DNA of 64,000 nt from an uncultured Chloroflexia bacterium (GTDB lineage: Bacteria; Chloroflexota; Limnocylindria; Limnocylindrales; CSP1-4). The stretch spans positions 2,592,001 through 2,656,000 of the forward strand of contig OY970218.1 of NCBI GenBank assembly GCA_963713975.1, in the 5' to 3' direction. This document shows positions 1 to 9,007 of this stretch, piece after piece. The stretch's first letter is position 1. Each line of letters opens with the position of its first letter. The notes below the pieces were generated by a model. That model ran no database searches and was not told the DNA's origin. It saw only the letters and a list, made by a program, of their open reading frames with translations. A program made the position numbers and the translations under genes.

Positions 1-3000
1 GAGGTCACCACGCAGGACGGGTATCCGGCACTGCTCCTGCGCGGCGACGCCAACCCGGTCGCCGACCGTGCGGTCATTCCGCTCGACAGCCTCGTCGGTC
101 GCGTCTCGGCGGTTGTGCCGGCTGCGGGATACCTCCTGTGGGCGCTCAGCCGGCCCGAGGGCATCGCCACCTGGGCAGCGGTTGCGTGCCTCCTGCTGCT
201 CGGACTTGCGGCTGCTGGTGGGACTGGCGGTCGGAAGCCCCACCGGGGTGCACGCCTCTGGCGGGCGATGCGGGGGGGTCGCCTCAGAGCCCCGGCGATG
301 GCGCTCCGGCGTGCGATGTGGCTTGGCCTCGACCAGCCTGCCATGGCCGCCGTGATCTTCGTCGTGCTGGTCGCGGGCGGGAGCTCGACCCTGGCATCCG
401 CCGCCATCTTCACCACGTCGGCCACGGTCGGCGACAACACCTTCAGCACCGGGACCTGGTCCGCGAGTGCCTATCGCTCGGTGGCCAGCGGTGCCTGGGC
501 CGACCCGGCGACGTGGCAGCGGCATAACGGGGTTGGCTGGGTGTCTGCCACCAGGCCGCCCGAATCCATGGACGGCGTGGTGACCGTGGGCAGTGGCCAT
601 GTCGTGACCGTCGAACGGCCGGTGGCCGTCGATGAGGTCGTTGTGGCCTCTGGAGGCCAGCTTGCCGTGGCGGATGGCGTGATCCTTACCGTCGAGGACG
701 GCTCGGGCGCGGACCTTGGCATCGCGGGCACGTTCGACACGATCGGGACGACGACGCTCGATTCCGGGGCGGATGTCGCGATCGAGAGCGGCGGGCTCCT
801 CGTCGTGTCGGGGACCCTCGATGGCGCGGGATCCCTCACCGGGCGGTCGGGCACGCTCCAGGCGAGCGGAGGCGCACGATCCATCCCGGTTCCGGTGATG
901 CTCGAGACGTCCCTGACCGTTGCCGGAACCGAAGGCATGTCGCTCGGGGACGAGGTGGGCGGTACCGGCGCGCTCATCAAGAACGGCACCGGCACCCTGA
1001 CCCTGGGTGGCGCCAGCACCTACACCGGGGCCACCACCGTCAACGCCGGCACCCTCCGGCTGGGGACCGCCAACGCGATCGGCCCGTCGAGCGCGACCAC
1101 GGTCGCCGCGGGCGCGGTGCTCGATCTCGCGGGCCACGACGAGACCCTGGGCTCGCTCGCCGGGGCGGGCACGGTGACCAGCGGGGTGCCCGGCGCAGTG
1201 ACCCTGACCGTGGGCGGCAACGGCGTCGGCACCGGCACCTTCTCCGGGCTGCTCGAGGACGGGGGCGGCCAGCTGGCCCTGGTCAAGACCGGCACCGGCA
1301 CCCTGACCCTGTCGGGCACCCTCAGCACGTACACGGGGACCACCACGATCAGCGCCGGCATCCTCTCGGTCAGCAACGACCGGGCGCTCGGTGCCGTGCC
1401 ACTCGTTCCGTCCCCGGGCCGGCTCGTGATCGGCACCGCCACCCTGGCCACCACCGCGACGTTCACCCTCGACGCCGACCGGGGCATCGCGACCAGCGGC
1501 ACCAGCACCGTCTCGGCGGGCACCGGCACCACGCTCACCTACGGCGGGACCATCGCGGGCACGGGAGCGCTGGCCAAGACCGGCACCGGCACCCTCGTCC
1601 TGTCGGGTGCCAGCACGTACACGGGGACCACCACGATCAGCGCCGGCATCCTCTCGATCGCGGACGACACCGCCCTGGGCGCCGTCCCGGACTCGCCCAC
1701 GCCGGGCCGGCTCGTGATCGGCACCGCCACCCTGGCCACCACCGCGACGTTCACCCTCGACGCCGACCGGGGCATCGCGACCAGCGGCACCAGCACCGTC
1801 TCGGCGGGCACCGGCACCACGCTCACCTACGGCGGGACCATCGCGGGCACGGGAGCGCTGGCCAAGACCGGCACCGGCACCCTCGTCCTGTCGGGTGCCA
1901 GCACGTACACGGGGACCACCACGATCAGCGCCGGCATCCTCTCGATCGCGGACGACACCGCCCTGGGCGCCGTCCCGGACTCGCCCACGCCGGGCCGGCT
2001 CGTGATCGGCACCGCCACCCTGGCCACCACCGCGACGTTCACCCTCGACGCCGACCGGGGCATCGCGACCAGCGGCACCAGCACCGTCTCGGCGGGCACC
2101 GGCACCACGCTCACCTACGGCGGGACCATCGCGGGCACGGGAGCGCTGGCCAAGACCGGCACCGGCACCCTCGTCCTGTCGGGTGCCAGCACGTACACCG
2201 GGATCACCACCATCAGCGCGGGGGTCATCCGGGTGCAGCACGAGAGCGCCCTGGGCTCCACGGCCGGCGGCACCACCGTCACCTCGGGCGCGGCGATCGA
2301 GATCGACGGCAGCGGCCTCGCCCTCGCCCTCGCCGACGCGATCACCAGCCTCAACGGCACCGGCGTGGGCGGCACGGGCGCGATCCGCAACCTGGCCGGC
2401 GCCAACAGCTGGTCGGGGGCGATCACGATGGCCGCGAACTCCACGGTCAGCACCGACGCCGGCACGCTCACCCTCGGAGCGATCGCCGGCAACACCCGCA
2501 CCCTGACCATCATCGGGGCCGGGAACACGACCATCGGCGGCGTGATCGCCACGACCACCGGCGCGCTCATCAAGAACGGCACCGGCACCCTGACCCTGGG
2601 TGGCGCCAGCACCTACACCGGGGCCACCACCGTCAACGCCGGCACCCTCCGGCTGGGGACCGCCAACGCGATCGGCCCGTCGAGCGCGACCACGGTCGCC
2701 GCGGGCGCGGTGCTCGATCTCGCGGGCCACGACGAGACCCTGGGCTCGCTCGCCGGGGCGGGCACGGTGACCAGCGGGGTGCCCGGCGCAGTGACCCTGA
2801 CCGTGGGCGGCAACGGCGTCGGCACCGGCACCTTCTCCGGGCTGCTCGAGGACGGGGGCGGCCAGCTGGCCCTGGTCAAGACCGGCACCGGCACCCTGAC
2901 CCTGTCGGGCACCCTCAGCACGTACACGGGGACCACCACGATCAGCGCCGGCATCCTCTCGGTCAGCAACGACCGGGCGCTCGGTGCCGTGCCACTCGTT

Positions 3001-6000
3001 CCGTCCCCGGGCCGGCTCGTGATCGGCACCGCCACCCTGGCCACCACCGCGACGTTCACCCTCGACGCCGACCGGGGCATCGCGACCAGCGGCACCAGCA
3101 CCGTCTCGGCGGGCACCGGCACCACGCTCACCTACGGCGGGACCATCGCGGGCACGGGAGCGCTGGCCAAGACCGGCACCGGCACCCTCGTCCTGTCGGG
3201 TGCCAGCACGTACACGGGGACCACCACGATCAGCGCCGGCATCCTCTCGATCGCGGACGACACCGCCCTGGGCGCCGTCCCGGACTCGCCCACGCCGGGC
3301 CGGCTCGTGATCGGCACCGCCACCCTGGCCACCACCGCGACGTTCACCCTCGACGCCGACCGGGGCATCGCGACCAGCGGCACCAGCACCGTCTCGGCGG
3401 GCACCGGCACCACGCTCACCTACGGCGGGACCATCGCGGGCACGGGAGCGCTGGCCAAGACCGGCACCGGCACCCTCGTCCTGTCGGGTGCCAGCACGTA
3501 CACCGGGATCACCACCATCAGCGCGGGGGTCATCCGGGTGCAGCACGAGAGCGCCCTGGGCTCCACGGCCGGCGGCACCACCGTCACCTCGGGCGCGGCG
3601 ATCGAGATCGACGGCAGCGGCCTCGCCCTCGCCCTCGCCGACGCGATCACCAGCCTCAACGGCACCGGCGTGGGCGGCACGGGCGCGATCCGCAACCTGG
3701 CCGGCGCCAACAGCTGGTCGGGGGCGATCACGATGGCCGCGAACTCCACGGTCAGCACCGACGCCGGCACGCTCACCCTCGGAGCGATCGCCGGCAACAC
3801 CCGCACCCTGACCATCATCGGGGCCGGGAACACGACCATCGGCGGCGTGATCGCCACGACCACCGGCGCGCTCATCAAGAACGGCACCGGCACCCTGACC
3901 CTGGGTGGCGCCAGCACCTACACCGGGGCCACCACCGTCAACGCCGGCACCCTCCGGCTGGGGACCGCCAACGCGATCGGCCCGTCGAGCGCGACCACGG
4001 TCGCCGCGGGCGCGGTGCTCGATCTCGCGGGCCACGACGAGACCCTGGGCTCGCTCGCCGGGGCGGGCACGGTGACCAGCGGGGTGCCCGGCGCAGTGAC
4101 CCTGACCGTGGGCGGCAACGGCGTCGGCACCGGCACCTTCTCCGGGCTGCTCGAGGACGGGGGCGGCCAGCTGGCCCTGGTCAAGACCGGCACCGGCACC
4201 CTGACCCTGTCGGGCACCCTCAGCACGTACACGGGGACCACCACGATCAGCGCCGGCATCCTCTCGGTCAGCAACGACCGGGCGCTCGGTGCCGTGCCAC
4301 TCGTTCCGTCCCCGGGCCGGCTCGTGATCGGCACCGCCACCCTGGCCACCACCGCGACGTTCACCCTCGACGCCGACCGGGGCATCGCGACCAGCGGCAC
4401 CAGCACCGTCTCGGCGGGCACCGGCACCACGCTCACCTACGGCGGGACCATCGCGGGCACGGGAGCGCTGGCCAAGACCGGCACCGGCACCCTCGTCCTG
4501 TCGGGTGCCAGCACGTACACGGGGACCACCACGATCAGCGCCGGCATCCTCTCGATCGCGACGACACCGCCCTGGGCGCCGTGCCCGGACTCGCCCGTCG
4601 CCGGGCCGGCTCGTGATCGGCACCGCCACCCTGGCCACCACCGCGACGTTCACCCTCGACGCCGACCGGGGCATCGCGACCAGCGGCACCAGCACCGTCT
4701 CGGCGGGCACCGGCACCACGCTCACCTACGGCGGGACCATCGCGGGCACGGGAGCGCTGGCCAAGACCGGCACCGGCACCCTCGTCCTGTCGGGTGCCAG
4801 CACGTACACGGGGACCACCACGATCAGCGCCGGCATCCTCTCGATCGCGGACGACACCGCCCTGGGCGCCGTCCCGGACTCGCCCACGCCGGGCCGGCTC
4901 GTGATCGGCACCGCCACCCTGGCCACCACCGCGACGTTCACCCTCGACGCCGACCGGGGCATCGCGACCAGCGGCACCAGCACCGTCTCGGCGGGCACCG
5001 GCACCACGCTCACCTACGGCGGGACCATCGCGGGCACGGGAGCGCTGGCCAAGACCGGCACCGGCACCCTCGTCCTGTCGGGTGCCAGCACGTACACCGG
5101 GATCACCACCATCAGCGCGGGGGTCATCCGGGTGCAGCACGAGAGCGCCCTGGGCTCCACGGCCGGCGGCACCACCGTCACCTCGGGCGCGGCGATCGAG
5201 ATCGACGGCAGCGGCCTCGCCCTCGCCCTCGCCGACGCGATCACCAGCCTCAACGGCACCGGCGTGGGCGGCACGGGCGCGATCCGCAACCTGGCCGGCG
5301 CCAACAGCTGGTCGGGGGCGATCACGATGGCCGCGAACTCCACGGTCAGCACCGACGCCGGCACGCTCACCCTCGGAGCGATCGCCGGCAACACCCGCAC
5401 CCTGACCATCATCGGGGCCGGGAACACGACCATCGGCGGCGTGATCGCCACGACCACCGGCGCGCTCATCAAGAACGGCACCGGCACCCTGACCCTGGGT
5501 GGCGCCAGCACCTACACCGGGGCCACCACCGTCAACGCCGGCACCCTCGACGTCAACGGGAGCACCGCCGGCGGCGGGTTCACCGTGGCGGCTGGTGCCA
5601 CGCTGGGAGGCTCCGGAACCGTCGGTGGAACGGTCAGCGTCTCGGGCACGCTGAGCCCTGGCTCATCCGCCGGGCGGCTGACGAACGGTGCGCTGACGCT
5701 GGTCGCAGCGTCCACGTTCGCCGTCGAGATCGGTGGCACGACGCCCGCCAGCCAGCACGACCAGGACCGCGTTGCCAGCGGCGCGATCACGATCGGCGCT
5801 GGCGTCCAGCTCTCGCTGGTCACGATCGGAGGCTTCACTCCGACCATCGGCCAGACGTTCCTGATCCTCGACAAGGCGTCCGCCGGCGCGATCAGCGGCA
5901 CCTTCACCGGCCTCCCCCAGGGCTCGACGATCGCGACGTTCCTGGGCAGCGCGCTGAGCGCGCAGATCAGCTACACCGCCGGCGATGGCAACGACGTGGT

Positions 6001-6019
6001 GCTCACGGTCCTGCCCTGA
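1..6019 (+). CDS. Giant surface protein, 5'-truncated by the window: SipW-type signal peptidase C-terminal half + TM + SipW-cognate signal peptide + autotransporter-associated beta-strand (PATR-like) repeats; apparent frameshift at ~4560-4600
   Basis: Frame +1 is open from base 1 (EVTTQDGYPALLLRGDANPVADRAVIPLDSLVGRVSAVVPAAGY) and runs into ORF 115. It carries many LxKxGxGTLxLxGxSTYTGxTTxxAG repeats. After a net +1 indel the repeat protein continues in ORF 4505..6019, ending ISYTAGDGNDVVLTVLP-stop. Confidence 0.85.
964..5549 (+). repeat. Nested intragenic tandem repeats: three large units (1593, 1305, 1594 bp) containing 3, 2 and 3 copies of a 288-bp module
   Basis: ACCGGCGCGCTCATCAAGAAC recurs at 964, 2557, ~3862 and ~5456. 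Antisense ORF boundaries repeat every 288 bp (1539, 1827, 2115). Copies look nucleotide-identical by eye except at 4560-4600. Confidence 0.95.
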
Positions 6020-6268
6020 CCGTCCGCGGATCCCGTCCTCGGTGCGTTGACGCACCGGGCGCGCGGCCTTCGACCGGCCGGCGGGGCACGTCGGCGAACG
6101 AAGGTACTCCCGCCGATGGCCCCTCCGGCTGGTGCGCACGGTCACGCCGATCCTGTCCACTACGGCGAACCGCGAGCAGCGTCGGGACGATGACCTTCGG
6201 GCAGCCGGTAGCGCGGCCGAACGACGGCCCCGACGGGCGCGGCAGCTCATATGGGAGCATGAAGCAAA

Positions 6269-6853
6269 TTGACCCAGCACCAGCCATTCCCGCCCCTTGC
6301 GGGCCGCTCTTGGTGGCGCCACGGCCAGGTCGCCCTCATCGCAGGCTCGCTGGTCGCCATGATCGGCGCCGGTGCGATGTCACTTGCAACGTTCACCGAC
6401 AGTGAGGCGTCCACCGGCTCATGGACGGCGGGCACGATCGTGCTCGGCGTAAGCCCGACGACCACATTCACGGCAAACAACATCATGCCCGGCGACACCG
6501 GCAGCCAGGACCTCACCGTCTCGAACAACGGGACCGGCGCCCTGCGCTATGCGATGTCGGGCGCCTCCACCAACCTTGACGGACTCGGGCTCGCGGCCCA
6601 GGTGGCCCTGACCATCCAGGCGGGCACCTGCGCCTCCCCGACGTCCACGTTGTTCGTCGGCACCCTCGCGACGGCTGCCCTCGGCAGCAACGCCACCGGG
6701 CAGGACACGGGCGACCGCCCGGTCGCGGCTCAGGCCTCCGACAGCCTGTGCTTCACGTGGGACTTCCCGCTCGCTTCCGGCAACGCCTTCCAGGGCGCGG
6801 CCACGGGCACCACGTTCACGTTCGACGCCGAGCAGACCGCCAACAACCCGTAG
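6269..6853 (+). CDS. tasA: TasA/CalY-family secreted fibre subunit with SipW-cognate signal peptide
   Basis: Hydrophobic leader, then GAMSLATFTDSEASTGSWTAGTI, NIMPGDTGSQDLTVSNNGTGALRY and a C-terminal NAFQG...FTFDAEQ. Adjacent to sipW. The TTG start is uncertain. Confidence 0.8.
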   Translation: MTQHQPFPPLAGRSWWRHGQVALIAGSLVAMIGAGAMSLATFTDSEASTGSWTAGTIVLGVSPTTTFTANNIMPGDTGSQDLTVSNNGTGALRYAMSGASTNLDGLGLAAQVALTIQAGTCASPTSTLFVGTLATAALGSNATGQDTGDRPVAAQASDSLCFTWDFPLASGNAFQGAATGTTFTFDAEQTANNP

Positions 6854-6908: not shown

Positions 6909-6929
6909 CCGTCGGTGGAGCCCTGCGTC

Positions 6930-7574
6930 ATGTCCATCGCCACGATCACGATCCGGATCCTGCGGCGCACGATCGATGTGGCCCTGCTGCTTCTGATCGT
7001 GCTCGTGCTCGGAACCCTCGCCATCTCGAAGGTCGTGCCCTCCGTCACCGGCGGCACGACCTTCGTCGTCCAGGGCGGATCGATGCAGCCCGCGATCCCA
7101 TACGGATCCGCCGTGATCGTGACCCCGGTGGGCCCGGGCGAGCTCCGGTCGGGCGACGTCGTCAGCCTCCGGGTGGGCGAGCGGCGGCTGGTGTTCACGC
7201 ACCGCATCATCCGGCTCGTTCCCCGCGACGACGGCCTGTGGCTCGAGACCCGGGGGGACGCCAACACCGACCCCGACCCGGCGCTCGTGCCGGCATCCGC
7301 GGTGATCGGCAGGCTCGCTGCCACGATCCCCGTTGCCGGCTACGCCGTTGCCCTGCTCGGATCCGTTTCAGGGATTGCTTTCGTCGTGGCGCTCGCATGC
7401 GCCCTGCTGATGGGCGGTGGCCTCCTCGGCGGGCTTGACGCGGAGCGGCGCGCGGAACGCCTCCGCCCGGTTCCCAGCCCGGTCCCCGGCCGGCAGGCGG
7501 GAGTCCACCGGCTTCCCCGGGATCGTCGGAGCCGGCGACCCGTTGTCCCTCCGCCCGTCGTCCGGGAGGTCTGA
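6930..7574 (+). CDS. sipW: Signal peptidase I, SipW/ER-type (Ser-His)
   Basis: N-terminal TM, VQGGSMQPAIPYGS, FTHRI, TRGDANTDPD and a C-terminal TM. GGAG precedes ATG 6930. Confidence 0.9.
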   Translation: MSIATITIRILRRTIDVALLLLIVLVLGTLAISKVVPSVTGGTTFVVQGGSMQPAIPYGSAVIVTPVGPGELRSGDVVSLRVGERRLVFTHRIIRLVPRDDGLWLETRGDANTDPDPALVPASAVIGRLAATIPVAGYAVALLGSVSGIAFVVALACALLMGGGLLGGLDAERRAERLRPVPSPVPGRQAGVHRLPRDRRSRRPVVPPPVVREV

Positions 7575-7693
7575 CCACACGGGGGTGGCGCTGCGCCGGC
7601 CGGCCGCACGCACGTAACGACCGCCCGCCGCGCATGCGAGGTGCGATCATCCCGGCTGCGGAGCCAGCGAGTCGACTCGACGAGGTGCTGAAG

Positions 7694-9007
7694 GTGGGCG
7701 ACGGCCGGACGATCGTGTTCTTTCCCGAGGGCGCCTACGGACCGACCAACAACTGCGCCGGCATCGGCAGCGTGCTGCGGGAGCGCGGCCACCGGGTCGT
7801 GTTCATCGTGGAGGAGTCCTTCGCGGGCAGCCTGGAGGCGAAGGGCTTCGAGGAGCGCCTGATGCGCCTGGGTCCGCCACCCGCGGAACCCGAGGTCCCG
7901 GGCCAGTTCTGGATCGACTTCATCCGGGACACGGCGCCTGTCTTCCGCAAGCCCACGATCGAGCAGCTGGGCGAGTTCATCGCCCCCACCTTCCAGGCCC
8001 TCATCGACGGCGCGAAGCACGTCCACCCGCGCCTCCTGGAGATCATCGACGAGCTCCGGCCGGACGCGATCGTGGAGGACAACGTCGTCAGCTTCCCCGC
8101 GATCATGGCGAGCGGCCGTCCGTGGATCCGGCTCCTGTCGTGCAACCCCGCCGAGATCAAGGACCCGCTGGTGGCCCCGTTCTCGTCCGGCTATCCAGTC
8201 GCGGACAGGGCTGGCTGGCCGGCCTTCCTCGAGGAGGTCGGGCGGACGCATCGCGAGCTCTGGGCCGACTTCGACGCCTTCTGCCGGGACACTGGTGCCG
8301 GCGGCCTGGCGTGGGGCGCGAATGGCCCCGACTTCATGCACGAGTCGCCGTACCTCAACCTGTACTCGTACCCGGAGGAGGTCGACTACGCGCGAGCGGC
8401 GGCGCTGGGGCTCACCTGGCATCAACTGGACTCCACGGTTCGTGCGGCGGACGCGGGGTGGGAGCTGCCGGAGGCCCTGGCGAACCGGAAGGGAGCCCTG
8501 ACCTACCTCTCCCTGGGCAGCCTGGGATCCGCCGACGTGGGCCTGATGCAGCGGCTGGTGGACGTCCTCGGCCGGACGGAGCATCGCGTGATCGTGTCCA
8601 AGGGCCCGCTCGCGGACGAGATCACGCTCCGCGACAACATGGCCGGCGAGGGCTTCCTGCCGCAGCCCGCGATCCTGCCCCTGGTGGACCTGGTGATCAC
8701 GCACGGCGGCAACAACACCGTGGTCGAGTCCTTCCACCATGGGAAGCCGATGGTGGTGCTGCCCCTGTTCTGGGACCAGGTCGATAACGCCCAGCGCGTG
8801 GACGAGACGGGATACGGCCGACGCCTGGCCACCTATGACTTCGCCGACGAGGAGCTGACCGGGGCGATCGATGCGCTGCTGGCCGACACCGGGCTGCGCG
8901 GGCGCATGGCTGCCATCTCGGCGCGCATGAAGGCTGCCGACGGGACCAGGAAGGCGGCCGACCTCATCGAGCGTGTCGCGATCACGGGAGCGCCCGTCAC
9001 GCGGTAG
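7694..9007 (+). CDS. GT1-family UDP-glycosyltransferase (MGT-like)
   Basis: YLSLGSLG and PQPAILPLVDLVITHGGNNTVVESFHHGKPMVVLPLFWDQ signature. The start may lie further upstream (ORF from 7634). Confidence 0.85.
   Translation: MGDGRTIVFFPEGAYGPTNNCAGIGSVLRERGHRVVFIVEESFAGSLEAKGFEERLMRLGPPPAEPEVPGQFWIDFIRDTAPVFRKPTIEQLGEFIAPTFQALIDGAKHVHPRLLEIIDELRPDAIVEDNVVSFPAIMASGRPWIRLLSCNPAEIKDPLVAPFSSGYPVADRAGWPAFLEEVGRTHRELWADFDAFCRDTGAGGLAWGANGPDFMHESPYLNLYSYPEEVDYARAAALGLTWHQLDSTVRAADAGWELPEALANRKGALTYLSLGSLGSADVGLMQRLVDVLGRTEHRVIVSKGPLADEITLRDNMAGEGFLPQPAILPLVDLVITHGGNNTVVESFHHGKPMVVLPLFWDQVDNAQRVDETGYGRRLATYDFADEELTGAIDALLADTGLRGRMAAISARMKAADGTRKAADLIERVAITGAPVTR

What the first reader, a model, noticed from the sequence alone, without database searches (positions are those of the whole stretch)
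1..459. SipW peptidase fused in cis to its own cognate signal peptide and a giant adhesin
Seen: frame +1 has no stop from base 1. It encodes RGDANPVAD...LVGRVSAVVPAAGY plus a TM, which aligns by eye with the C-terminal half of the SipW at 6930 (RGDANTDPD...IGRLAATIPVAGY plus TM). After an Arg-rich linker, bases 343-459 encode a second hydrophobic stretch and TLASAAIFTTSATVGDNTFSTGTW. The ORF track hides the fusion because it starts at 115. Known: this motif matches the A-x-F-T...N-T-F-x-x-G pattern of SipW-cleaved substrates such as TasA and CalY. Inference: the polyprotein may cleave off its own roughly 1,900-aa passenger, leaving a TasA-like N-terminal strand. I recall SipW-plus-substrate fusions among actinobacterial annotations, but I know of none characterised.
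Basis: partly seen in the sequence, partly recalled or inferred. Interest (0 to 1): 0.9.

Follow-up and report, generated by a model that had tools for sequence, protein, structure and literature searches.

The report
Signal peptidase fused to own substrate
One very long gene encodes a SipW-type signal peptidase, then a signal peptide of the kind that enzyme cuts, then a giant repeat adhesin; the same fusion is conserved in related genomes, so the secreted protein seems to be made in one chain with the enzyme that should release it.

Summary
Frame +1 is open from 711 bases upstream of the window to base 6405. The upstream part supplies the missing half of a SipW-type (S26B) peptidase: TM1, Ser47 (SGSM), His86 (THR) and Asp105 (GDAN). 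No stop separates it from TM2, an Arg-rich loop, a signal-peptide core, the motif S-A-A|I-F…NTFSTGTW and a roughly 1,860-aa PATR-repeat passenger.

It is not an assembly artefact. Seven other genomes of the same family, in four other genera, carry the same stop-free fusion, and so do several database proteins. The linker is conserved at amino-acid level and the catalytic and cleavage-site residues are invariant.

Fused SipW domains group together in a tree, apart from stand-alone SipWs. Passengers differ: PATR adhesin, collagen-like, or small actinobacterial domains. Of 67 long SipW homologues, at least 35 show the same architecture, and databases name them only "signal peptidase I".

Cleavage, cis versus trans action and a TasA-like donor-strand role are inferred, not shown. 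Structure predictions gave no docking signal. In this genome the passenger frame is broken near 4560-4598. Seven searches of the held paper library found no description of such natural fusions.

The parts
1..153 (+). C-terminal part of the SipW (S26B) catalytic domain, residues about 90-140 of the fused protein. Asp105 of GDAN is at 46-48. The start (GTG at window -266), TM1, Ser47 (window -128..-126) and His86 (window -11..-9) lie upstream of the window at G000:C1:2591734-2592000.
   Evidence: TIGR02228 78.7 bits; invariant G46 S47 M48, T85 H86 R87, G104 D105 A106; SEC11C E 5e-13.
154..219 (+). TM2, the C-terminal membrane anchor of SipW (GIATWAAVACLLLLGLAAAGG).
   Evidence: Hydrophobic stretch. 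AF2 helix 141-162 with block pLDDT about 78-80. Aligned with TM2 of the orthologues.
220..342 (+). Arg-rich loop, predicted cytoplasmic. It doubles as the positively charged n-region of the signal peptide (TGGRKPHRGARLWRAMRGGRLRAPAMALRRAMWLGLDQPA). In-frame ATGs at 268 and 298.
   Evidence: Conserved with P0004 and G139 at amino-acid level and equal in length. No Shine-Dalgarno-like motif and no conserved start codon. The GC3 of frame +1 dips at 190-240.
343..405 (+). Signal-peptide h-region (MAAVIFVVLVAGG) and c-region (SSTLASAA). Predicted cleavage after Ala224, between bases 405 and 406.
   Evidence: invariant S222 at -3, A224 at -1. Same S-x-A|x-F-T pattern in both TasA-like genes of the locus.
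406..459 (+). Predicted mature N-terminus IFTTSATVGDNTFSTGTW, a TasA-donor-strand-like motif with Phe at P2' and a second Phe 11 residues on.
   Evidence: invariant F226, N235, G240, W242. Passages of PMC9674648: the TasA donor strand is residues 28-38, with F29, I32, F39. Abstract of PMC10269814: Phe at P2' of TasA.
406..4559 (+). Passenger, frame +1: a non-repeat N-terminal domain, then nested PATR repeat arrays (288-base units within a longer repeat of roughly 1.3 kb whose period was not measured).
   Evidence: Pfam PF12951, 11 stretches, E 5.8e-81. TRF..
4560..4598 (+). Frame breaks in the passenger relative to the other repeat copies: one G missing near 4560, one G extra at 4583, one G extra at 4597 plus A>T at 4598. 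The net effect is +1.
   Evidence: The orthologues in G139 (open frame 2182 aa) and G236 (1555 aa) are unbroken.
4599..6019 (+). Rest of the passenger, read in frame +2 (the frame of ORF 4505-6019), ending ...GDGNDVVLTVLP and a stop. No barrel, sortase or membrane-anchor domain was found.
   Evidence: Pfam gives PATR only, 3 stretches. The same C-terminal ending occurs in G139, G236, P0018 and, less exactly, P0010.
6269..6853 (+). TasA/camelysin-like protein 2, with signal peptide ...GAGAMSLA|TFTDSE.
   Evidence: Pfam PF12389 E 4.2e-13, above cut-off..
6915..7574 (+). SipW2, a stand-alone SipW with its own stop; 38% identical to the fused SipW domain.
   Evidence: (TIGR02228 78 bits). It sits in the stand-alone clade of the tree (L015).

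Best explanation
This is a real, conserved gene fusion. One polypeptide of about 2,080 aa holds five parts in order. (1) A complete SipW-type (S26B, Ser-His) signal peptidase: TM1 with N-terminus inside, the catalytic domain outside, and TM2. (2) An Arg-rich cytoplasmic loop. (3) A signal-peptide h/c-region that re-starts translocation. (4) A SipW-type cleavage site, S-A-A|I-F-T. (5) A PATR-repeat passenger of about 1,860 aa.

Shown: the continuity of the frame, its conservation, the invariance of the catalytic and cleavage-site residues, and the operon context (TasA-like 1, SipW::adhesin, TasA-like 2, SipW2).

Inferred: the chain inserts as a three-span membrane protein. A SipW active site, either its own in cis or a neighbour's in trans, cuts after Ala224. 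The passenger is released outside the cell with the new N-terminus IFTTSATVGDNTFSTGTW. The signal peptide stays covalently attached to the peptidase as its third helix.
For: Frame open from window -711 to 6405, with SGSM, THR and GDAN in the same frame. TIGR02228 above cut-off. Profile match to SEC11C/A at E 5e-13, and these are also the best Foldseek hits.

In a search of 401 genomes of the order, 7 besides G000 gave stop-free matches spanning SipW, linker, signal peptide and passenger start. They are G139, G316, G273, G234, G236, G184 and G197, in 4 other genera, at 37-52% identity. Their translations were checked.

P0004 is 59% identical over 536 aa with only a 2-aa gap in the linker. The linker is the same length as in G139. 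In the alignment, 9 of 9 sequences keep Ser47, His86, Asp105, S222, A224, F226, N235, G240 and W242.

No Shine-Dalgarno-like motif and no conserved start codon precede the signal peptide. In G184 no in-frame start codon precedes the h-region, in G197 the only one ahead of the basic loop lies inside TM2, and in G139 the only one lies after most of the basic loop.

Fifteen fused SipW domains group together (UFboot 84 / SH-aLRT 74), apart from 22 stand-alone SipWs. Five of the 150 listed library representatives span the whole fusion. A pattern for a later hydrophobic peak followed by a small-x-small/aromatic motif hit 41 of 66 long SipW homologues scored, against 6 of 66 mirror controls.

All three substrates of the locus share S-x-A|x-F-T. 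Phe at P2' is the feature that makes TasA a SipW substrate rather than a LepB one (abstract of PMC10269814).
Against: No raw reads could be examined. The GC3 of frame +1 dips to 0.55-0.65 at 190-240 while frame +2 reaches 0.9, and TRF reports a weak 19-base double at 193-230 (score 55); the equal linker length argues that this is not a frame-changing duplication.

AF2 gives low confidence (pLDDT under 60) for the signal-peptide part and does not dock it. No NCBIfam signal-peptide model matched the passenger N-terminus at E up to 10.

G181 has an orthologous passenger as a separate ORF, in another frame, behind a stand-alone-type SipW. So the fusion is not obligatory and trans cleavage is plausible.

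The passenger frame is broken in this genome, so here the full passenger may not be made if the breaks are real.
Confidence: 0.8

Rival explanations
1. Assembly or sequencing artefact: SipW and the adhesin are separate genes, and a lost stop or an indel in this assembly joins them.
For: The assembly has clustered indels elsewhere in the same gene. There is a G7 run at 271-277, and frame +2 would stop at TGA 353-355. GC3 dips at 190-240. Distant relatives G010, G002 and G016 have SipW, a TAG stop and then the substrate's start codon in the same frame, so a single base change could fuse them.
Against: The same stop-free fusion is in 7 other genomes and at least 5 database representatives at 37-59% identity. 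The linker is conserved in frame +1 and equal in length to G139's. Fused SipW domains form their own group in the tree.
Confidence: 0.03
2. The fused frame is read, but the adhesin is mainly made from an internal start (ATG 268 or 298) as an ordinary secreted precursor. The read-through fusion would be a minor or incidental product.
For: G000 has in-frame ATGs at 268, 298 and 343. A start at 268 or 298 would give a normal basic n-region. G181 makes the orthologous passenger from its own start.
Against: No Shine-Dalgarno-like motif lies upstream of any candidate. The Met positions are not conserved. In G139, G184 and G197 no in-frame start codon would yield a normal n-region. SipW has no stop, so every ribosome that starts at SipW runs into the passenger.
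Confidence: 0.1
3. The fusion is not cleaved. The third hydrophobic segment is a permanent anchor, and the adhesin stays tethered to the membrane through a possibly non-proteolytic SipW module.
For: AF2 models residues 200-231 as one long helix. The passenger has no other anchor domain. Streptococcus pyogenes SipA, described in its PDB title as a signal peptidase homologue essential for pilus polymerisation, is among the fold hits.
Against: Catalytic Ser, His and Asp are invariant in 9 of 9. So are -3 Ser, -1 Ala and P2' Phe of the site. The h-region is only about 13 residues long, which is signal-peptide-like.
Confidence: 0.07

Closest known systems
Bacillus subtilis tapA-sipW-tasA system
   Same: A dedicated S26B signal peptidase is encoded beside substrates whose signal peptides end small-x-Ala with Phe at P2'. 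The mature N-terminus of the substrates is a donor strand. A TasA/camelysin-family gene lies in the same operon.
   Different: Here peptidase and substrate are one polypeptide. The passenger is a PATR adhesin of about 1,860 aa, not a TasA-fold protein (no PF12389 hit). The Bacillus SipW equivalog cut-off is not reached (56 bits against 190). The relatives are labelled Chloroflexota, not Bacillota.
SEC11A/SEC11C, catalytic subunits of the eukaryotic signal peptidase complex (PDB 7p2p, 7p2q)
   Same: They are the best sequence-profile match (E 5e-13 and 2e-12) and the best fold match.
   Different: SEC11 acts in a four-subunit complex on separate substrates. It has no fused substrate and no C-terminal TM2-loop-TM3 extension.
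LexA, lambda CI and UmuD (S24, same clan as S26): self-cleaving proteins
   Same: A peptidase of this fold class sits in one chain with its own cleavage site. Their C-terminal domains are among the fold hits (ranks 3-17).
   Different: They are cytoplasmic and use a Ser-Lys dyad. Cleavage is triggered by RecA and inactivates a repressor (recalled). Here the enzyme is a membrane peptidase of the Ser-His type (dyad type recalled, not tested here), and the cut would release an exported passenger.
TapA, the accessory protein that primes TasA fibres with an N-terminal donor strand
   Same: It is a non-TasA protein that is SipW-cleaved and has a TasA-like N-terminal strand (passages of PMC9674648; title and search listing of PMC10151520).
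   Different: TapA is small and not fused to SipW. A donor-strand role for the PATR passenger is untested.
PATR-repeat passengers of type V autotransporters
   Same: The same PF12951/TIGR02601 repeats.
   Different: No beta-barrel translocator domain was found. Export would be by Sec plus SipW in a phylum that is, from recall, monoderm.

Membership tests
S26B / SipW-type (archaeal-eukaryal type) signal peptidase I | Match to the family HMM above the curated cut-off | tested here: met
   TIGR02228 78.7 bits against a cut-off of 51.85, residues 29-156; 81.3 bits in the genome scan.
S26B / SipW-type (archaeal-eukaryal type) signal peptidase I | Catalytic Ser and His (not Lys), plus the conserved Asp | tested here: met
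   S47 in SGSM, H86 in THR and D105 in GDAN are invariant in 9 of 9 fused sequences. That these positions correspond to the B. subtilis SipW catalytic residues is recalled, not tested.
S26B / SipW-type (archaeal-eukaryal type) signal peptidase I | Fold and sequence similarity to solved S26B enzymes | tested here: met
   SEC11C E 5.1e-13 and SEC11A E 2e-12 by profile. 7p2q_A and 7p2p_A are Foldseek ranks 1-2. AF2 block pLDDT is 73-87 over residues 1-160.
S26B / SipW-type (archaeal-eukaryal type) signal peptidase I | Peptidase activity on a signal peptide | not testable with these tools
   Needs an experiment.
Bacillus SipW equivalog (NF046067) | Score above the equivalog cut-off | tested here: not met
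   56.3 bits against a cut-off of 190. It is a SipW-type enzyme, not the Bacillus orthologue.
SipW-cognate class signal peptide | Match to a curated signal-peptide model (TIGR04088, name recalled) | tested here: inconclusive
   No such family was listed for window 268-600 at E up to 10. I cannot tell whether the short model is in the library or passes HMMER's filters.
SipW-cognate class signal peptide | Basic n-region, hydrophobic core, small residues at -3 and -1, aromatic at P2', N-T-F-x-x-G about 10 residues later, gene next to sipW | tested here: met
   (S222, A224, F226, N235, G240 invariant). The same S-x-A|x-F-T occurs in the two TasA-like genes.
TasA/camelysin family (Pfam Peptidase_M73), for the passenger | Match to PF12389 | tested here: not met
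   Only PATR was found in window 268-4500 and 406-1300. The neighbouring ORF 6269-6853 does match (E 4.2e-13).
PATR / autotransporter-associated beta-strand repeat proteins | PF12951 / TIGR02601 repeats | tested here: met
   11 stretches at E 5.8e-81, and 3 more in the C-terminal part.
Type V autotransporter | C-terminal beta-barrel translocator domain | tested here: not met
   No barrel family was found in window 4607-6016 at E up to 1.

The most novel reading that the evidence does not exclude
The fusion is a stoichiometric, self-priming secretion module. Each passenger is delivered with its own SipW, which cuts in cis once and then keeps the signal peptide tethered in or near its groove, so it is effectively single-turnover. 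The freed N-terminus (IFTTSATVGDNTF...) is a TasA-type donor strand that plugs the giant PATR (or collagen-like) passenger onto fibres of the neighbouring TasA-like proteins, in the way TapA primes TasA. That would give adhesin-tipped or adhesin-anchored TasA-type filaments in Chloroflexota and Actinomycetota.
Probability: 0.2. Interest if true: 0.8.

Novelty: new variant of a known kind. Interest (0 to 1): 0.62.

Why it matters
Type I signal peptidases are treated as free-standing enzymes that meet their substrates at the translocon. A conserved natural fusion of a SipW-type peptidase to a cognate pre-protein would be a membrane-embedded self-processing precursor.

It offers a compact system for studying S26B substrate recognition. 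Enzyme, signal peptide and cleavage site are in one chain, and the covalently retained signal peptide could act as a built-in product.

It also bears on annotation. Dozens of proteins are named only "signal peptidase I", which hides exported adhesins or matrix proteins behind the peptidase name.

Finally, it links TasA-type matrix operons outside Bacillota to very large adhesins.

Tried and rejected
Raw-read check: the look-up of sequencing runs on L001:5000-6900 listed no run.

Complex prediction (SipW domain alignment A2 against signal-peptide alignment A3) returned 'no answer', score 0.00. It is neither support nor evidence against.

AF2 of residues 1-254 modelled the SipW domain well, but the signal-peptide part had pLDDT under 60. 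It therefore says nothing on cis docking.

The search of protein representatives was run with A1. The long tail of P0004 stayed in the profile (539 positions), so the 150 listed hits are dominated by PATR proteins. Only 5 full-span fusions and one partial could be read from it. It does not measure how common the fusion is.

A frame-shifting 19-base duplication at 193-230 and a frame +2 ending at TGA 353-355 were considered. I rejected them because the linker equals G139's in length and is conserved in frame +1.

G339 (L024) has a 752-aa stop-free frame across TasA-like, SipW and the next gene. It lacks an in-frame hydrophobic core and looks out of frame in places, so it was not counted as a fusion. 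G164 has a long tail but no substrate.

Seven searches of the held paper library found no paper on natural SipW-substrate fusions. The library misses most subscription journals, and supplements were not consulted.

Rows dropped from the tree: L003, L005, L036, L041 and L042 (my Ser-motif pattern did not match), L014, and L039 (from G225, an unpublished genome).
Full report
**The observation**

The window is G000:C1:2592001-2656000 of a single-contig genome of 3.62 Mb with 70.8% G+C. Frame +1 runs without a stop from base 1 to 6405. The default ORF list begins it at GTG 115, which hides the 5' part.

Bases 1-200 encode ...RGDANPVAD...LVGRVSAVVPAAGY plus a hydrophobic helix. This is collinear with the stand-alone SipW at 6915-7574. 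Bases 343-459 encode MAAVIFVVLVAGGSSTLASAAIFTTSATVGDNTFSTGTW.

Reading the genome upstream, the frame stays open for another 711 bases. It encodes a basic N-terminus, TM1, LTSGSMAPT and LLTHRVIEV. The likeliest start is GTG at window -266. It overlaps by four bases (GTGA) the stop of an upstream ORF whose product has a SipW-type signal peptide (...AVSLA|LFTRE) and a weak camelysin match. Residue numbers below count from that GTG.

**The peptidase part**

The N-terminal part scores 78.7 bits on TIGR02228 (cut-off 51.85), but only 56 bits on the Bacillus SipW equivalog (cut-off 190). A profile of eight fused SipW domains finds human SEC11C and SEC11A (E 5e-13 and 2e-12). These are also the top Foldseek hits of the AF2 model.

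The genome has two TIGR02228 matches above cut-off: this one and SipW2.

**Real or artefact?**

No sequencing run was listed, so I tested the fusion by comparison.

A first draw of 41 relatives gave only SipWs at about 32% identity. In G010, G002 and G016 the SipW ends with TAG and the very next codon starts a substrate with a SipW-type signal peptide, in the same frame. That shows how easily such genes could fuse.

A search of 401 genomes of the order gave 152 with a match at E up to 1e-8. Seven besides G000 match the query across SipW, linker, signal peptide and passenger start without a stop:
- G139: 52% identity, open frame 2182 aa.
- G316, G273, G234: 43-45% identity, open frames cut short by contig ends.
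- G236: 44% identity, open frame 1555 aa.
- G184 and G197: 37-38% identity, open frames 827 and 790 aa.

An NCBI protein named 'MAG: signal peptidase I [Candidatus Limnocylindrales bacterium]' (P0004) is 59% identical over 536 aa, with a single 2-aa gap in the linker.

In the nine-sequence alignment the following are invariant: G46 S47 M48, T85 H86 R87, G104 D105 A106, and in the signal-peptide part S222, A224, F226, N235, G240, W242.

The linker is conserved in frame +1 (RLWR..LRAPA..WLGLD.P). It has the same length in G000 and G139.

Two oddities remain. Frame +1 GC3 dips at 190-240, and TRF reports a weak 19-base double at 193-230. Given the conserved linker length and sequence, I do not take these as signs of a frame change.

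No Shine-Dalgarno-like motif precedes any in-frame start in the linker, and the Met positions of G000 are not conserved. G139, G184 and G197 have no in-frame start codon that would give a normal n-region. I conclude that the fusion is real and is the main product.

**Cleavage site and topology**

The basic N-terminus, TM1, an external catalytic domain, TM2 (AF2 helix 141-162), a loop with many Arg and Lys residues and a single Asp, then a 13-residue hydrophobic core fit a topology in which the loop is cytoplasmic and the passenger is exported.

The invariant Ser at -3, Ala at -1 and Phe at P2' place the cut at SAA|IF (window 405|406). The alternative, ASA|AIF, would put Val (G139) or Arg (G197) at -1.

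Both TasA-like genes of the locus have the same S-x-A|x-F-T. TasA itself has Phe at P2' and depends on SipW (abstract of PMC10269814).

In TasA the mature N-terminus, residues 28-38 with F29, I32 and F39, is the donor strand of the fibre. TapA has a similar N-terminus (passages of PMC9674648). The passenger's IF...NTF has the same spacing to within one residue. A donor-strand role is therefore a reasonable inference, but it is untested.

Neither the complex prediction (no answer) nor AF2 (low confidence beyond residue 160) bears on cis docking.

**The passenger**

The passenger has a non-repeat N-terminal domain, then nested PATR repeat arrays: PF12951 with 11 and then 3 stretches, in 288-base units. 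It ends ...GDGNDVVLTVLP. No barrel or anchor domain was found.

In G000 the frame is broken at 4560-4598 by three single-base differences from the otherwise identical repeat copies. After them the true frame is that of ORF 4505-6019. The orthologues in G139 and G236 are intact. So the breaks are either assembly errors in the repeat or a recent disruption.

**How widespread**

SipW domains of 15 fused proteins group together (UFboot 84 / SH-aLRT 74), apart from 22 stand-alone SipWs of the same family. SipW2 of G000 lies with the stand-alone ones. The rows were chosen as best hits to a fused query, which biases the sample. Even so, no stand-alone SipW fell inside the fused group.

Passengers differ. 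G000, G139, G316, G273, G234 and G236 have PATR. G184 and G197 have collagen repeats (PF01391). P0006 has Big-type domains.

A profile of the fused SipW domains, searched against longer proteins (299-2000 aa), gave 67 hits at E up to 1e-5. A pattern for a later hydrophobic peak followed by a small-x-small/aromatic site hit 41 of the 66 that could be scored, against 6 of 66 mirror controls. By eye, 32 of the 41 are convincing. Three more (P0190, P0166, P0006) were missed by the pattern.

The hits include proteins of named isolates called 'signal peptidase I' or hypothetical: Nocardioides psychrotolerans, Gordonia sinesedis, Psychromicrobium silvestre, Rathayibacter festucae and Nocardioides sp. 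LS1.

G181 has the orthologous PATR passenger as a separate ORF, in another frame, behind a stand-alone-type SipW. The fusion is therefore dispensable, and trans cleavage is plausible.

**Novelty**

Seven searches of the held paper library found no description of natural SipW-substrate fusions. That library is incomplete.

The components (SipW, cognate signal peptide, TasA-like operon, PATR adhesin) are all known kinds. The covalent peptidase-substrate arrangement is an undescribed but widespread variant. Its closest logical precedent is the self-cleaving S24 proteins of the same clan, such as LexA and lambda CI, which appear among the fold hits.

**Verdict**

The mechanism (cleavage at A224|I225, cis or trans) is inferred, with confidence about 0.8 that the fusion is real and processed. 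Interest is 0.62.

Noticed in passing
window 4560-4598: Three single-base differences (one G missing, two G extra, plus one substitution) from the otherwise identical repeat copies break the adhesin frame. Frame +1 then reads Arg/His-rich nonsense to 6405, and the true frame continues to the stop at 6019.
   Followed up: partly
window 190-240: GC3 of the coding frame dips to 0.55-0.65 while frame +2 reaches 0.9. TRF reports a weak 19-base double (193-230, score 55). The cause is unexplained. The linker length equals the orthologue's.
   Followed up: partly
L048:4947-7430 (G184) and L049:7064-9433, minus strand (G197): These are fused SipW proteins whose passenger is a collagen-triple-helix protein (PF01391), not a PATR adhesin. 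It is preceded by a Trp/Tyr-rich segment that looks by eye like a carbohydrate-binding module; that was not tested.
   Followed up: partly
L050:1900-3300 (G181): The orthologous PATR passenger is a separate ORF in another frame, overlapping the 3' end of a stand-alone-type SipW. Its N-terminus keeps a short hydrophobic stretch and a basic loop ahead of the signal-peptide core, possibly a remnant of a former fusion.
   Followed up: partly
L024 (G339:C8:526663-530124): A 752-aa stop-free frame runs through a TasA-like gene, a SipW and the next gene, with segments that look out of frame. This is probably frameshift errors, or chance openness in high-GC DNA. It warns against calling fusions from open frames alone.
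   Followed up: partly
P0008 (964 aa): A SipW-type domain is fused to several membrane helices and to GGDEF and EAL domains (PF00990, PF00563). This is a different kind of SipW fusion, and it falls outside the substrate-fused group in the tree.
   Followed up: no
window 7634-9007: A UDP-glycosyltransferase-like gene (PF00201, EryCIII-like C domain) lies directly after SipW2. It could glycosylate the matrix proteins or the adhesin. This was not examined further.
   Followed up: no
L003, L006, L007 (G010, G002, G016): SipW ends with TAG and the next codon is the start of a substrate with signal peptide ...LARF(S/T)..., in the same frame. This is a zero-spacer arrangement one base change away from a fusion.
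   Followed up: partly
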